A stretch of 64,000 nt of DNA from Octopus vulgaris (Eukaryota). A model generated the notes under the pieces. The model had not been told where the DNA came from. It saw only the letters and a list, made by a program, of their open reading frames with translations, and did not search any database. Where the stretch lies: assembly GCA_951406725.2 (NCBI GenBank), contig OX597834.1, positions 39,246,001 through 39,310,000 of the forward strand, written 5' to 3'. Below, piece after piece: positions 1,161 to 55,312 of this stretch. Each line of letters opens with the position of its first letter. Position 1 is the first letter of the stretch. Both the position numbers and the translations under genes were made by a program.

Positions 1161-1332
1161 GCCATGATTGACCGCTAGCTACTAAAGGTTTCATTTTTTA
1201 ATTCTCTCTGTTTATTTTCTCGTGTTCCTTTCTGTTGAAGAGCATAGGCTCGAAACGTAAAAGGCTTTCTCACCTTCCCTGTATGTTGTTTACACACTTG
1301 TCTTCTCTTCCTGTTTTTGTCTTCCTATTTTT

Positions 1333-1437: not shown

Positions 1438-1602
1438 GGTCGATTCTCAGACCGGGCGTTGTGTGTGTTTATACGAGGCTAGGGGGTGGTGATCCTGCTG
1501 TACTCTTTCACCACAATGGCGGTGCCCCAGCATGGCCACAGCTCAAAAAGCTGAAACTGGAAAAACAAAAACAAAAACAAATATATATATATTAATTATA
1601 TA

Positions 1603-2118
<516 letters not shown>

Positions 2119-3628: not shown

Positions 3629-3965
3629 TTTGTAGTAAAGATTGTTTGCCAACATAGCAAAGCAGTCCTGGTTTAGAACTAATGTTGCTGTAGTTTAGCC
3701 CCAGGAGATGTCGTTTCCAGCTGGCTATACGACACGATCTGTGTCCTTATATTTTCGAACGAGGGAATCCAGCACCCCCACTCAGCTCAAAACAATATCT
3801 GTGTATAGTTGAGCGGGGGTGCTAGATTCCCTTGTTCTAAAATATAAGGACACAGATCATGTCGAAGAGTAAGCTGGAGACGATGTCTCCTGGGGCTAAA
3901 TTGCAGCAACATTCGTCCTAAACCAGGACTGCCATGTTATATTGGCAAACAATCTTTACTACAAA
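3629..3965. repeat. long imperfect inverted repeat (~160-bp arms, ~19-nt spacer)
   Basis: TGTAGTAAAGATTGTTTGCCAAC...CCCCCACTCAGCT pairs with AGTTGAGCGGGGG...TTGGCAAACAATCTTTACTACA. Confidence 0.85.
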
Positions 3966-26244: not shown

Positions 26245-26440
26245 AGGAGAGTTTACGAAAAAAAAAAAAACAAAAGACGAAGACAGGTGGTGTACAAAAC
26301 AAACAGATGTATTAGTATAACGCTCAGGAATAGAAAAAGTCTTTTACGTTTCGAGCCTACGCTCTTCAACAGAAAGGGACACAGTAAAAAACAAGGAGAG
26401 AAAAAAACGTGTCTAGTGGCTACAGATCTATCATGGCGAC
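26240..26440 (-). mobile_element. family H1 repeat with minimal hammerhead motif
   Basis: The minus strand at 26341-26376 reads CTTT-CTGTTGA-A-GAGC-GTAG-GCTC-GAAAC-GTA-AAAG. Confidence 0.7.
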
Positions 26441-26539: not shown

Positions 26540-26916
26540 TAATATTAGGGAGTAAATCCAAACTTACAGGGAAAAATTAGATTTGGGATTAAATCTAATT
26601 TTACAGTATAAATATAAATTAAATTAGAGATAAAACCATTATTAGGCAAATCAAACAGTGAAAAACATAAACCAAAACATAAAAATAAAATTAATTAATA
26701 TAATATACAAAATATATAAAATATAAAATTCAAAATTTAAATGATTTAGATTTAAAGTTAAAAATTAAAAATTAAAAATTTTTAACTTTAAATTTAAATA
26801 ATTTTATATCTTATATATTTTGTACATTATATTAATTAATTTTATTTCTATGTTTTGGTTTATGTTTTTCACTGTTTGATTTGCCTAATAGTGGTTTTAT
26901 CTCTAATTTAATTTAT
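26540..26916 (-). mobile_element. Penelope-pLTR-like remnant with AT-rich palindrome
   Basis: 26540-26645 is homologous to the reverse complement of 1910-2017. An inverted repeat spans about 26613-26916. Confidence 0.65.
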
Positions 26917-27134
26917 ACATACATATATATAATACTGTACCAAGAACTTAGTTTTTCTCATTTTACACACACACGCCCATATGCGCAAGTACACACGCAA
27001 ACACACACACGCATGCACACACGCACACAGAATCACGCACACATGCGCACACACACTCACACACAGCATGCATGTACACACACACACACGCGTGCGCACA
27101 CACACACACACGCATACACACACATACATATAGC

Positions 27135-27381: not shown

Positions 27382-28030
27382 AGAAGCTACCAGGCCAACA
27401 TATTATAGAACGGCAGCTACCCAACATGTCACGTATGTCAACAATATAATGAAACCATTGATCATGTTGTCTCCAAGTGCAGTCTTCTTGCGCCTACAGA
27501 GTATCTCAACAGGCATGATAGAGCAGCACAATATATTCACTGGGTAATTTGCATAAACATAGACCTGCTCCATGATAAAAACTGGTGGGAACACAAACCA
27601 CTTCCAGGGCTTGAAAATGATCACATTTCACTCCTCTGGAACTTCACCATTCAAACTGACATTATATTGAAGAACTTTAGACAAAAATGAAGTCACCTCA
27701 TTGATATGATTGTCCCAATCGATATAAACGTATCTGTCAAGACCTACCAAAAACTGAGCAAATATAAAGATCTTGAAATAGAAATTGGGAAAACGTGGAA
27801 CCTCAAGACTAAACCTCAAGACTTGTTGTCATAGGTGCCCTAGCAATGTTAGCAAAGGGAGCTGATTGCTACCTAGCTCAGATACCGGGAAACCCCAAAA
27901 TGGTAGAAATTCAACAGATAGTGCTCATGGGAACTGCCCATATCCTACGTAAAATACTGTCTAGGTAGCAAGCCCACTACGTATGTAAGACTCCATGAGC
28001 TCCAACAAAACCCGTGATAAAGAGAAATAA
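27382..28030 (+). mobile_element. 5'-truncated RLE-type non-LTR retrotransposon (R4/Dong-like), decayed ORF plus 3' UTR
   Basis: Translates to CHVCQQYNETIDHVVSKC (CCHC knuckle), RHD, LLWNFTIQTD, LIDM, KLSKYKDL, VVIGAL and MGTAHILRKILSR* (stop 27966-27968). It has stops and a frameshift and runs into (TAA)n. Confidence 0.9.
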
Positions 28031-28373: not shown

Positions 28374-28930
28374 AATGCCCTGAGGCAGTACCTGACAGTG
28401 GCTCTATAATGGCTCCTGATCTTAACTGATTGGTAGTGTTATCATGTTATTTTGTCTTGGTATAAAAGATGGGCCACAGCAAATACTCTGCTCAATACCA
28501 CAGATTGTCAGTTGTTTGACCTTAACCAGTTGAGCATATCCCTTGGTGGCTGACGATATGGTCATCTCTGATCACGAGCAGACGTAGTGGAGGAGCATCG
28601 TGTTGAAAGGAATTCATTGGGATTTGAATAATTCCCCTCTGGAAACATGGGGTGTTTCGTTTAGCGTCTTTAAACGACCCTTCTTCAGGGACTTTTTGAG
28701 CGGTATGGACTACTCGACCAAAGAAAATTCTAATAGGGCCCCACCTGCAAGACCATGCACTGTTTATCTTGATATCAGATCACTTTTTCGCGCACATATC
28801 ATTGTGATGCCTGTGCCTGGTGAACCCTTATCAGACGGGTAGTCATCATAATGGGTATATTGGACTTAGTATATTTGCACTCCAGTGTCATTTTGATGGT
28901 ACGAGCTGCTCTCTCACTCCATAATAATAA
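28374..28930 (+). mobile_element. ~550-bp TAA-tailed dispersed repeat (family D)
   Basis: A second copy lies inverted at 47664-48133. Both end CTCTCTCACTC(C/A)ATAATAA. Confidence 0.8.
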
Positions 28931-34241: not shown

Positions 34242-34571
34242 CATTCATACATATATTTACATGCAAGCAGACACACCACCCACACTTAAGATTAGACAAA
34301 TATATACATAGAAACATATTTCGTAGAATAGTCTGCTTCTATTAAATCCACCTCTTTTCAAGAGGAACTACACATATGAATTTGTCATGTTTCGAAAGAA
34401 CAAACGAAATACACATAGAGATTATCAAAACTGAGAACACACAGGCACATGCGTATACAGAGAGAGAGAGAGTGTGTGTCTGTGTGTGAGAGAGAGGGAG
34501 AGAGACAGACAGAGGGAGAGAGAGAGGGAGACAGTTCGTTTGTTATCATCCTGTTGAAAAAATGCACAATT

Positions 34572-34988
34572 TATAGTGCAATACACTGTAATACTTTAGC
34601 CCTTGAGGTATGTCTGGTACTTTATTTGTCCCTGATAGGTGAAAAACTTCCGGCTTCGTCGGCAGGATTCGAACTCACTATGATAGAGGACGAAAGTAGA
34701 TACTAAATAACGTTTCTCATTGCACACAATAGGATTTCATATTGATGGATTGATGGACCCTGTATATTCAGCTCCGTCCGTAAAAGAAAATCGCTGTGGA
34801 AAAACAAAACGTTATGCTAAGTAGCAAAGAGGTTTCCATTCATAAGGATTGATAAGGTCGCATATTTTTACAGATATCATAGTGAGTTCGAATCCTGCCG
34901 ACGTAGCCGTAGGTTTTTCACCTATCACGGACAAATAAAGTACCAGACATACCTCAGGGGCTAATGCATTACAGTGTATTGCACTATA
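34572..34988. mobile_element. MITE-like element with 114-bp inverted arms resembling SINE core
   Basis: 34572-34685 and 34875-34988 are reverse complements with about 7 mismatches by eye. The ends are TATAGTGC...GCACTATA. Confidence 0.75.
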
Positions 34989-35029
34989 TATATATTTTTT
35001 ATAGTATCTAATTCTCTCACCCTTATTAA

Positions 35030-35105
<76 letters not shown>

Positions 35106-35278
35106 GTGTGTGTGTGTGTACAGATAAATTCTCTATTTACATAATATCGAGGTCTCTTTCATTCTTTTGCTGTCTTACCATTTTTATTAGTGATTAGGGC
35201 ATTCGGTTCACGATCGTAAAGTCATAAGTTCAATTCCCGGCGACGCGCTGTGTCCTTGAACAAGACACTTTATTTCAC

Positions 35279-35863
35279 CACCAGCCGAGTATACGTGTGG
35301 AGACAGCCAAAAGAAGCATTTGACCTAGACTGCCTTCTTCCAACTGTTAAACATGGAGGAGGACCTGTGATTATCTGGGCGGCTATATCTTGGAAATCCG
35401 CCGGCCCAATGGTTTCCCGTCATGGCAGAATTAATAGTGAAGACTATTTAAGTATTTTATCTGATCAAATTCATCCTATGGTTGTGGAATTGTTTCCTGA
35501 AAGAAACGCAGTCTTTCAGGATGACAATGCACCAATTCACACAGCTAAAGTTTTTAGTGAATGGCACGATGAACATTCTAGTGAAGTCGAACATCTTATC
35601 TGGCCACCACAGTCCTGAGATCTCAATATTTTTGAATATTTATGGTGCATTTTAGAAAGAACAAGTAAGGGGTCGATATCCTCCACCATCATCACTACAA
35701 GAACTGGAAACTGTTTTAGCTGAAGAACGGACTAAAATTCTTTTGGACAAGTCCATAACTCGTAGAATTCAAGCTGTAATTACTCCTAAAGGCGGTCCTA
35801 CGCCATATTAAAATAAATTTGCTTGAAATTTTAAGGTGTCTTCATTATTTTATCCAACCCTTA
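35279..35863 (+). mobile_element. Tc1-like transposase 3' half (pseudogene) with 3' TIR
   Basis: Motifs TVKHGGG..IIWAAI, FQDDNAPIH, WPPQS*DLNIFEYLW and RRIQAVITPKGGPTPY*. The terminus reads GGTGTCTTCATTATTTTATCCAACCC. A SINE C head precedes it at 35190-35278. Confidence 0.9.
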
Positions 35864-45164: not shown

Positions 45165-45330
45165 TAGATCGCTAGCCACTAAACGTCTTGTATTTTCTCT
45201 CCTTGTTTAATTCTGTGTTCCTTTATGTCAAAGAACGTAGGCTCGAAACGTAAAAGACTCTCACTTCCCGAGCGTTAAACTAATACATCTGTTTCTTGTT
45301 TATACATCCGTCTTCGTCTTTTGTTTTTAT
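45165..45330 (+). mobile_element. family H1 repeat, decayed hammerhead motif
   Basis: CTTTATGTCAAAGAACGTAGGCTCGAAACGTAAAAG at 45221-45256. Confidence 0.7.
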
Positions 45331-45428
45331 ATATATATATATACCCGAGGAAGCACATAAATGTGAAACAGGGTGGGTTAGAATAGTACTCGAATACCGA
45401 AGGTAGAGTTATATGCTTTATTATTAAA

Positions 45429-47013: not shown

Positions 47014-47268
47014 TAAAATAGGATAAAATCTTTATAAGAATTTATCAAGAAGTCAGCGTGAAAAAACCTCAGAAGGGGAAAAATTATAATTTTTCCGATT
47101 AAATATATCTATTTATATGAAGGGCATTTCTACACAGAAATGTCTCACGCTATAAGGGACTCTTAAAGTCAAAACAACCGATATAAATACGGTAGTGCTG
47201 ACTTTAAGAGTCCTTCATAATATGAGGCATTTATGTGTAGTAATGTCCTTCATATAAATAAATATATA
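47012..47268. mobile_element. family P3 repeat with inverted tail
   Basis: Homologous to 8325-8510. About 47104-47180 pairs with 47189-47268 around the spacer ATATAAAT. Confidence 0.65.
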
Positions 47269-47663
47269 TATATACACACACATATGAGCTTGGAGGGATA
47301 TATTATCCGGGCGGATACCGTATTAGCTCTCAGTGGATTTCCAGTTGACGGTTAACCACAACGATCAGTATCCAACATCTGTGTCTACAATTAGTGGTTA
47401 ATCACTCCGTGAATCACTCCCATGGCTAGTTCTGTGTGCACGACACCAATCTCTAACAGAACACTAACTAAGAAAAACTTACTTCAGTCATTTCACTTCG
47501 AGAACGACCAAATGAACAGACCCTCAAGATGCTGCACCGAAAATATTACAAGGTTGAATTTGCAACATTAAGTAGTCGCTGTAACGGAAACACGTGTAGG
47601 TCATTACAATATGTTGTATATAACTACCAAATAAATTTTGTGGATGCACATGTCTCCATACTC

Positions 47664-48133
47664 ATTATTATTGAGTGAGAGAGCAGTGCATGCCATCAAG
47701 GTGACACTGGGATAAAATATACGAAGCCTAGTATACACAGCATGACTACCCGTCTGATAAGAGTACACCAGGCACATGCATCACAACCATATGTGCACGA
47801 CACGGTGATCTCATATCAAAATAAACAGCGCATGACCTTGCAGGTGGGACCCAGTTAGAATTTTCTTCAGGTCGAGTAGCCCATCCCACTCAAAAGGTCC
47901 CCGAATAACGGTTGTTTTAAGGACGATGAACGAAACATCCGTGTTTCCACACGTGAATTATCCAAACCCCAAAGAATTCTTCTCAACACATGGCTACGCT
48001 GCTCCATAACTATTTCTGTTCGTGATCAGAGATGCACAAATCATCAGCCACCAAGGGAAATACTCAACTGGTTAATGTCAAACAACTGATATGCAAATCT
48101 GTGGTATTGAGCAGAATATTTGCTGTAGCCCAT
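47664..48133 (-). mobile_element. family D repeat, 5'-truncated
   Basis: Reverse complement of 28468-28930. Confidence 0.85.
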
Positions 48134-54375: not shown

Positions 54376-54886
54376 TTATCGTATACACACACACACACGC
54401 AAACTCGCAAATGATGAGCTGTCATAACCATCACTTAATATACGACAGCAATTAAAACACATTTCACATAAGCAGTTATGGCTCTTTCCTAATCATTAAT
54501 ATAAAAAACAAAAACAAACAACACACAACAAAACAGACTCACATTATCCAAACCCGTTAGCATATATCACATATAACAGCTATTATACATGCTTACAGTG
54601 TTTGTTATCAATCCTAATGACTGTATGATACGCATATACAGGATAATGCCATGATTGACAGTGTTGTATTACTGTGTGGTGTATCTACATTTCGGTGTAT
54701 TCAAGACGGGGTAATCACCGTTTACCGAACTAACCACGGTACAAGAATAAACACACGTACACGAGATGTTGGAGATAAAACGTTGATAAGGCGACACTCT
54801 TCCAATGAGACACTATTTGTTTAATACAAACTTTCTACACATCACCATCATCGCTATATATCAATATATATATATACATATTCATA

Positions 54887-54933
<47 letters not shown>

Positions 54934-54937
<4 letters not shown>

Positions 54938-55142
54938 ACAAAATCTGTTACTCTGAGTTTCTCGTTGCCGTTCATCAGACAGTTTTTTCTAGCAAAAACT
55001 GTCTGATGAACGGCAACGAGAAACTCAGAGTAACAGATTTTGTTGATTTTTCTGCTGCTTAAAAATAAAGCATATTACTCTACCACTGGTATTTGAGTAC
55101 TCTTTTTTCCACCTTGTTTCACATTTATGTGTTTACTCCGTC
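54934..55142 (+). mobile_element. Penelope-pLTR/retrozyme-like insert with perfect 54-bp inverted repeat
   Basis: 54934-54987 is the exact reverse complement of 54994-55047. The tail at 55060-55140 is homologous to the reverse complement of 45344-45429. Confidence 0.8.
54999..55036 (+). ncRNA. type I hammerhead ribozyme with intact catalytic core
   Basis: Stem I CTGT/ACAG, core CTGATGA, short stem II (CG-GCAA-CG), GAAA, stem III ACT-CAG-AGT and GTA cleavage triplet. An identical copy lies on the minus strand at 54945-54982. Confidence 0.75.
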
Positions 55143-55256
55143 TATATATATATATATATATTTATGTATATATACATATATATACATACATCTACATGTA
55201 CATATATATATATTCTACACATCACCATCATCGTTATATATCAATATATATACATA

Positions 55257-55312
<56 letters not shown>

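What the first reader, a model, noticed from the sequence alone, without database searches (positions are those of the whole stretch)
54934..55047. Perfect palindrome placing an intact hammerhead ribozyme on both strands
Seen: two 54-bp arms are exact reverse complements around TCTAGC. Each carries CTGT-CTGATGA-ACGGCAACGA-GAAAC-TCAGA-GTA-ACAG, which has all conserved hammerhead core bases, stems I and III, and a 2-bp stem II capped by GCAA with an A-A opposition at its base. Predicted cleavage is after A55032. Known: Penelope-like elements carry minimal type I hammerheads in their pseudo-LTRs and often have inverted terminal duplications. Inference: this is a recent non-autonomous insert. Any read-through transcript meets the antisense copy first, so the long hairpin could mask the ribozyme and provide dsRNA for ADAR or Dicer.
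Basis: partly seen in the sequence, partly recalled or inferred. Interest (0 to 1): 0.8.

Follow-up and report, generated by a model that had tools for sequence, protein, structure and literature searches.

The report
Fold-back stump of Penelope-like retroelement
The mirror-image hammerhead ribozyme is real, but it is most likely the ordinary folded-back stump left when a very abundant Penelope-like jumping gene inserts into an AT repeat; only the ribozyme's unusually weak second stem is worth testing.

Summary
Observation confirmed: 54/54-bp arms around a 6-nt loop, each with a type I hammerhead core; cleavage predicted after 55032. The unit is larger than reported. A 5'-truncated sense copy runs from about 54987 to 55142 and ends in (TA)n; the left arm is its inverted copy. 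Thousands of contigs from three of four laid runs match. They show a fixed 3' end in (TA)n, and 9 of 15 listed joints are head-to-head inversions with other breakpoints. The window holds a non-inverted stump of the family and a second, unrelated hammerhead palindrome. Papers describe this layout for Penelope-like elements (PMC3846280, PMC8557442, PMC4209133). No RT/endonuclease ORF was found, so membership is inferred. The ribozyme is predicted to be masked by the hairpin on either strand, and to fold correctly only as a dimer. One oddity: stem II has 2 bp closed by A-A or A-G in the family, and U4C is common. 'Recent', 'non-autonomous family', cleavage and ADAR/Dicer use are not shown. The scan reported the same kind of structure on two other genomes.

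The parts
54934..54987 (-). Inverted (fold-back) copy of 54994-55047; carries the hammerhead on the minus strand; joins the (TA)n tract with an AT microhomology
   Evidence: 54/54; junction read
54987..55142 (+). 5'-truncated sense copy of a high-copy repeat family (pseudo-LTR-like end with hammerhead and tail)
   Evidence: thousands of contigs cover it; loose ends at 55138-55140 continue into (TA)n; second copy in window at 45347-45427, 83% over 81 nt
54988..54993 (+). Loop of the palindrome; 54989-54993 is family sequence upstream of the ribozyme, not filler
   Evidence: the T>G row at 54988 (23 and 31 contigs) is what family contigs laid on the mirror arm would show; X4 depth 450,719 at 54990-54997
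54990..55045 (+). Type I hammerhead domain: stem I 54999-55002/55033-55036 plus an 8-bp extension 54990-54997/55038-55045; core 55003-55009 and 55020-55023; stem II 55011-55012/55017-55018; cleavage predicted after 55032
   Evidence: extension pair probabilities 0.61-1.0
55023..55031 (+). Helix III region: interrupted palindrome (4 bp, one central mismatch, 4 bp between two copies), the predicted dimer interface; in the monomer 55025-55029 instead pairs with 55002-55006
   Evidence: duplex -7.4 kcal/mol; dimer fold; decoy pair probability 0.975
55048..55142 (+). Family tail, not duplicated in the inverted arm; contains AATAAA at 55064-55069; ends at the family's 3' boundary
54833..54933 (+). 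Left copy of a ~100-nt flanking direct repeat, ending in the (TA)n target; candidate long target-site duplication
   Evidence: aligns to 55213-55309 with 3 substitutions and a 4-nt gap; its unique 21-mer occurs only at 54833 and 55213 in the window
55143..55212 (+). TA-rich 70-nt stretch between the element's 3' end and the right direct repeat; not duplicated; origin unresolved
55213..55309 (+). Right copy of the flanking direct repeat

Best explanation
This is a dead-end, 5'-truncated insertion of the hammerhead-bearing end of a very high-copy Penelope-like retroelement family, with the inverted 5' copy that such elements often make on landing. Shown: the family, its fixed 3' end in (TA)n, variable 5' ends, varied inversion breakpoints, and the hammerhead anatomy. 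Inferred: an endonuclease nicked the (TA)n tract and reverse transcription started at the family's 3' end. It ran about 155 nt and stopped just past the base of extended stem I. The new strand folded back on its own T run, copied itself for 54 nt, and was joined to the target through an AT microhomology. In the parent element the ribozyme most likely cleaves only as a dimer through the helix III palindrome. At this locus it is most likely inert, because any transcript crossing it forms the 54-bp hairpin.
For:: 5263, 4548 and 471 contigs laid in runs X2, X4 and X9. Loose ends at 55138-55140 run into (TA)n in all three. 9 of 15 listed joints (17 in all) join the inverted orientation to the sense copy at other breakpoints; one (54969 to 55008) is in both X2 and X4. 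One head-to-tail partial tandem (55137 back to 55067) is in both; a same-family 81-nt stump at 45347-45427 with the same 3' end, (TA)n on both sides, no ribozyme and no inversion; an unrelated hammerhead family forms the same head-to-head layout at 1588-1955 (95%) and, without the ribozyme, at 26613-26917; the two-copy fold is the double hammerhead (-26.6 against 2 x -12.2 kcal/mol). Papers: head-to-head inversions with palindromes at the junction, read as self-priming (PMC3846280); inverted 5'-truncated copies and microsatellite bias (PMC8557442); hammerhead pairs on opposite strands 100-700 bp apart and short palindromic helix III (PMC4209133); AT-rich cleavage and internal RT start downstream of the ribozyme (PMC11167929).
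Against: No RT or GIY-YIG ORF was linked to the family: 0 of 144 window ORFs reached a Pfam cut-off, no genome is held, and collection scans found no relative. Stem II misses the published G10.1-C11.1 consensus; all 44 rows seen have at least 3 bp. The ~100-nt direct repeat is far longer than the 8-10 bp duplications in PMC3846280, and 70 nt between element and repeat are unexplained. This locus's own junction was not seen bridged in the listed contigs. Some joints end in T runs, each rests on one contig per run, and could be mis-joins at 80% likeness. Run X15 gave 0 contigs.
Confidence: 0.8

Rival explanations
1. The family is a short non-autonomous element (retrozyme- or SINE-like) that borrows a PLE enzyme in trans, and this locus is one of its fold-back insertions. 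The mechanism of the palindrome is the same; only the parent differs.
For: No ORF is linked; depth falls off sharply upstream of about 54990 (depth at 54988 is 30,522 in X4 against 450,719 at 54990-54997). A 2026 preprint derives animal retrozymes from PLE ends (10.64898/2026.07.22.740005; abstract, introduction and part of methods read).
Against: Retrozymes are defined there as head-to-tail tandem units each with a hammerhead; this locus is head-to-head. Loose ends at 54987 show further family sequence upstream. The drop in depth may reflect subfamily divergence or contig breaks.
Confidence: 0.1
2. The palindrome itself is the mobile or functional unit: a tiny two-strand ribozyme element, or a host-used hairpin that feeds ADAR or Dicer.
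For: The arms are perfect and cover almost exactly the ribozyme domain (54994-55047 against 54990-55045). A direct repeat flanks the insert. Family sequence is present in a run guessed to be RNA (471 contigs in X9).
Against: Inversion breakpoints vary among loci. A family stump without inversion exists. The hairpin buries both cores. The RNA label of X9 is a guess, and contigs cannot assign expression to this locus. No host gene was found.
Confidence: 0.05
3. Assembly or library artefact (fold-back chimera), or a later local inverted duplication unrelated to integration.
For: The arms are 100% identical and this junction was not seen bridged in the 24 listed pieces. The locus abuts a long (TA)n tract.
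Against: The arm is short, stops at a microhomology and is embedded between ordinary flanks. Other palindromes in the window have diverged arms (95%, 87%, 85%), so they predate sequencing. Short-read contigs of two studies hold comparable inversions.
Confidence: 0.05

Closest known systems
Inverted pseudo-LTR insertion units of endonuclease-positive Penelope-like elements (Arkhipova et al. 2013, PMC3846280; Craig et al. 2021, PMC8557442)
   Same: Head-to-head inverted, shorter 5' copy with a palindrome at the junction; extension present on one side only; strong 5' truncation; partial tandems; AT-rich or microsatellite targets.
   Different: Only about 210 nt remain; no ORF seen; the candidate duplication is ~100 nt rather than 8-10 bp; the family is far more abundant than in the rotifer.
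PLE hammerhead variants with small palindromic helix III (Cervera and de la Pena 2014, PMC4209133; shrimp, mosquito and fly rows of its Fig. S3)
   Same: Type I topology, 4-bp proximal stem I, full core, short palindromic helix III predicted to work as a dimer, AU-rich sequence downstream; pairs of motifs on opposite strands are reported there.
   Different: Stem II has 2 bp and no Watson-Crick pair at 10.1-11.1 (A-A, or A-G in part of the family); U4C is frequent; a predicted decoy helix pairs the core with loop III.
Poseidon element of Anolis (Frangieh et al. 2024, PMC11167929)
   Same: Insertion 3' end about 90-110 nt downstream of the ribozyme cut site; AT-rich target; ribozyme poorly active alone (protein-assisted there, predicted misfolded here).
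   Different: There the ORF starts within the ribozyme; here the ATG at 55006 opens only 18 codons (frame ends at 55059).
Animal non-LTR retrozymes (10.64898/2026.07.22.740005)
   Same: Non-coding, type I hammerhead, PLE-derived, many dispersed monomers.
   Different: Defined by head-to-tail tandem units; this locus is head-to-head with unequal arms.

Membership tests
Penelope-like element (EN+) | ORF with telomerase-like RT and GIY-YIG endonuclease | tested here: inconclusive
   0 of 144 window ORFs (60 aa or more, low-complexity ones filtered out) reached a Pfam cut-off; no genome held. A stump would lack the ORF, so membership is inferred.
Penelope-like element (EN+) | Type I hammerhead near the element's 3' end | tested here: met
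   Core 55003-55032 lies about 110 nt upstream of the family 3' end.
Penelope-like element (EN+) | Fixed 3' end with variable 5' truncation | tested here: met
   Loose ends at 55138-55140 in 3 of 4 runs; 81-nt stump with the same 3' end.
Penelope-like element (EN+) | Adjacent inverted 5'-truncated copy (head-to-head) and partial tandems | tested here: met
   This locus; 9 of 15 listed joints inverted, 1 of 15 a partial tandem.
Penelope-like element (EN+) | AT-rich or microsatellite target | tested here: met
   (TA)n on both sides here and at 45347-45427; (TA)n loose ends.
Penelope-like element (EN+) | Target-site duplication | tested here: inconclusive
   ~100-nt direct repeat with 70 nt of non-duplicated TA-rich sequence inside; no empty-site allele available.
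Hammerhead ribozyme, type I | Conserved core CUGANGA, GAAA, NUH with stems I and III | tested here: met
Hammerhead ribozyme, type I | Self-cleavage at the NUH site | not testable with these tools
   Needs an in vitro assay; folding predicts dimer dependence.
Hammerhead ribozyme, type I | Covariation in stems among copies | tested here: inconclusive
   One search lists single-site variants without haplotypes: 3 of 4 variable sites in the motif are at N7, loop II (GCAA to GGAA) and 11.1; 1 is core U4. No two-sided change could be read.
Hammerhead ribozyme, type I | Match to an Rfam hammerhead model | tested here: not met
   the control at 1200-1290 also gave none, so the models do not cover these variants.
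Metazoan PLE minimal hammerhead consensus (PMC4209133) | G10.1-C11.1 pair, extra base after A9, long helix II | tested here: not met
   2-bp stem II closed by A-A; no variant row at 55010 and only A>G at 55019 at the 3% threshold; 44 rows of Fig. S3 seen, all with 3 bp or more.
Metazoan PLE minimal hammerhead consensus (PMC4209133) | Palindromic helix III allowing a dimer | tested here: met
   55023-55031 self-duplex of -7.4 kcal/mol; dimer fold; a subfamily changes only the central base of the palindrome (loose ends at 55049).
Non-LTR retrozyme | Head-to-tail tandem units each with a hammerhead | tested here: not met
   Head-to-head pair only at this locus.
MITE or fold-back DNA transposon | Terminal inverted repeats at constant element ends | tested here: not met
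   The inverted arm matches an internal segment, the 95-nt tail is unpaired, and breakpoints vary.
microRNA precursor (MIR395 and others) | Rfam gathering score | tested here: not met
   Best hit over the palindrome 55.1 bits against 56; many unrelated miRNA models score on any perfect hairpin.

The most novel reading that the evidence does not exclude
The family's ribozyme is an undescribed, active, dimer-gated hammerhead variant. It has a 2-bp stem II closed by a purine-purine opposition. In the monomer a decoy helix between the core and loop III locks it off, and pairing with a second copy through the same loop unlocks it; the common U4C subfamily loosens the lock. Such a variant, kept in on the order of 10^4 copies, would widen the hammerhead consensus. 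The many fold-back insertions would also form a genome-wide source of perfect dsRNA hairpins that can silence their own family.
Probability: 0.2. Interest if true: 0.45.

Novelty: new member of a known kind. Interest (0 to 1): 0.2.

Why it matters
As a locus it matters little: it is one more instance of a structure already described for Penelope-like elements. It does give a clean junction for the unresolved question of how these inversions form. If the family's odd ribozyme cleaves, hammerhead descriptors that require a 10.1-11.1 pair and a longer stem II miss whole high-copy families.

Tried and rejected
Own-genome search: no genome held. Rfam: no hammerhead hit at E up to 10 on 54992-55075, none at gathering score in the window; miRNA hits rejected as generic hairpin matches. 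Pattern scans: 6 metagenome loci, all rejected as chance matches in bacterial-type coding DNA without stems I or III or the tail; 0 in viral contigs; 0 in bacterial and archaeal genomes. Pfam on 144 ORFs: 9 weak matches, none at cut-off; the two Lactamase_B matches fall on translated simple repeats. A candidate core at 28688 (-) failed the structural scans. The ATG inside the core opens only 18 codons. The Lunse et al. paper on dimeric PLE hammerheads is not held; I saw only its title in a reference list and the review's summary, so it may already cover such short-stem variants. A search for 10.1-11.1 mismatch data gave 0 papers; a search with guessed host taxa gave nothing relevant. File 1 of the PMC4209133 supplements could not be searched, and only part 2 of 3 of file 2 was read. 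No covariance model was built, as only two identical copies were at hand.

Full report
Observation. The arms 54934-54987 and 54994-55047 are exact reverse complements (54 of 54) around a 6-nt spacer, and they do not extend further. Each carries a type I hammerhead: stem I of 4 bp, CUGAUGA, a 2-bp stem II with a GCAA loop flanked by A55010 and A55019, GAAA, and GUA with the cut after 55032. A structural descriptor found 2 hits in the window, both here, and none in 200 of 200 shuffles; it was written after seeing the motif. Rfam found no hammerhead here or at a textbook-like minimal hammerhead at 1232 used as a control. The window is AT-rich eukaryote-type DNA full of simple repeats. The host is not known to me.

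Ribozyme anatomy. Stem I extends by 8 more pairs (54990-54997 with 55038-55045) after one mismatch. Positions 55023-55031 form an interrupted palindrome (self-duplex -7.4 kcal/mol). In a single copy the best fold pairs the core with loop III (pair probability 0.975), and the active fold has a weight of about 1e-4 to 1e-5. Two copies fold as the double hammerhead, -26.6 against 2 x -12.2 kcal/mol. The margin is about 2 kcal/mol and equally good dimer folds with a mispaired core appear for some variants, so this is a prediction only. On either strand of the locus the antisense arm comes first and the 54-bp hairpin (-92.7 kcal/mol) takes up the whole motif.

The family. No genome is held, so I used sequencing runs. 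Of 24 runs listed I laid 4 on 54934-55145 at 80% likeness. X2 gave 5263 contigs, X4 4548, X9 471 and X15 0. Summed depth was of order 10^5 to 10^6 in the two DNA runs, while the 16 listed pieces from them had depths of 19-108. That suggests on the order of 10^4 copies; the tool warns that this is no copy number. Loose ends at 55138-55140 continue into (TA)n in all three positive runs, which fixes the 3' end. Contigs also show that 54989-54993 in the loop is family sequence. Of 15 listed joints (17 in all), 9 join the inverted orientation to the sense copy at other breakpoints, 2 switch strands, 3 are internal deletions and 1 is a head-to-tail partial tandem. Each rests on one contig per run; two recur in both X2 and X4. 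None of the 24 listed pieces (10,308 not shown) cleanly bridges this locus's own centre.

Variation in the motif (rows from 3% of depth). U4C at 55004 is 62% in X2 and 35% in X4 (mirror position 46% and 44%). N7 T>C is 26% and 6%. Loop II GCAA to GGAA is about 11%, seen on the mirror arm only. Position 11.1 A>G is 36% and 33% on the right arm; its mirror is not listed, so the family share is lower. No row restores a Watson-Crick pair at 10.1-11.1, so the purine-purine opposition is a family trait, not decay of this copy. A divergent subfamily changes only the central base of the helix III palindrome and the unpaired base of stem I (loose ends at 55049, agreement 0.73-0.79). This is suggestive of selection on the structure but not a covariation test. 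In silico U4C removes the decoy pair (0.975 to 0.008) but also weakens stem II (0.81 to 0.15). PMC3088659 (passages) notes 2-bp stems II, a U-U mismatch at 10.1-11.1, and that U4C lowers activity yet supports a viroid in vivo.

Context in the window. A second family copy at 45347-45427 (minus strand, 83% over 81 nt) has the same 3' end, (TA)n on both sides, no ribozyme and no inversion. An unrelated hammerhead family forms a head-to-head palindrome at 1588-1955 (95%) and, truncated below its ribozyme, at 26613-26917. A third family with a minimal hammerhead lies at 1232, 26372 and, decayed, near 45195-45269. Inversion is thus a repeated outcome across families. A direct repeat of about 100 nt (54833-54933 and 55213-55309; 3 substitutions, one 4-nt gap) flanks the insert, with 70 non-duplicated TA-rich bases inside. 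Whether it is a long target-site duplication is open. None of 144 ORFs reached a Pfam cut-off: no RT, no GIY-YIG, no host gene.

Mechanism. Shown: family, ends, target and varied breakpoints. Inferred: nicking of (TA)n, reverse transcription from the fixed 3' end, arrest after about 155 nt, fold-back of the new strand on its own T run with about one base of overlap at 54987, 54 nt of self-copying, and joining through AT microhomology. The two breakpoints lie within 4 nt of the ends of the extended stem I. That may reflect pausing at structure, but it is a single case.

Comparison with the literature. PMC3846280 (passages and Discussion read) describes inverted pseudo-LTRs that are shorter than the direct copy, palindromes at the inverted junction, the head-to-head arrangement as the most frequent, and self-priming as the likely cause. 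PMC8557442 (passages) gives the inverted 5'-truncated copy and microsatellite bias as general features. PMC4209133 (parts 1-2 of 4 and part 2 of supplement 2) reports paired minimal hammerheads on opposite strands, short palindromic helix III, and low, dimer-dependent cleavage. Its consensus has G10.1-C11.1, and all 44 alignment rows I saw have at least 3 bp in helix II, which this motif does not meet. PMC11167929 (parts 1-2 of 4) shows AT-rich cleavage, RT start downstream of the ribozyme, and a protein-assisted ribozyme that is dispensable for insertion in vitro. PMC6765202 (passages) summarises dimer cleavage. I do not claim the stem II variant is absent from print: one search found nothing, and the most relevant paper is not held.

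Earlier scan notes. Two findings on other genomes reach the same reading. I had stated mine before seeing them. They are unchecked and not counted as support. None was found for this genome or its relatives.

Verdict. A real feature and a known kind of structure: works like, and probably is, a truncated fold-back PLE insertion (0.8), with membership inferred because no ORF was reached. Interest 0.2. The residual interest lies in the family's atypical ribozyme.

Noticed in passing
window 1588-1955: Older head-to-head palindrome (95% arms) of another family, with a hammerhead on each strand (cores at 1807 + and 1739 -), 5-bp stem II, and C instead of U at 16.1 on both arms; tail runs to about 2030 into (TTA)n(TA)n.
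   Followed up: partly
window 26541-26917: Second inverted pair of the 1588-1955 family (87% arms), truncated below the ribozyme, between simple repeats.
   Followed up: partly
window 1227-1268 (+), near 26333-26407 (-), 45195-45269 (+): Third repeat family with a minimal hammerhead (extra A after A9, G10.1-C11.1, 4-bp stem II, no loop III) but U at core position 6 in the two intact copies.
   Followed up: partly
window 45347-45427 (-): 81-nt stump of the same family as the finding, between (TA)n tracts, next to a copy of the third family in opposite orientation.
   Followed up: yes
window 3629-3965, 47100-47270, 34569-34991: Three more diverged inverted repeats (85%, 81%, 93%) with no hammerhead core in the scans; origin not studied.
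   Followed up: no
window 27409-27687 and 35220-35615 (+): Weak Pfam matches below cut-off to zf-RVT and DDE_3; look like relics of a LINE and of a Tc1/mariner-type transposase.
   Followed up: no
window 28560-28760 and 47830-48034: Two copies (78%) of another dispersed repeat; holds a CUGAAGA...GAAAC string at 28688 (-) that fails the hammerhead stems.
   Followed up: partly
window 54833-54933 and 55213-55309: ~100-nt direct repeat around the insert, with 70 non-duplicated TA-rich bases inside; unexplained.
   Followed up: partly
window 55064-55069: AATAAA downstream of the ribozyme, kept in the second family copy; possible polyadenylation signal.
   Followed up: no
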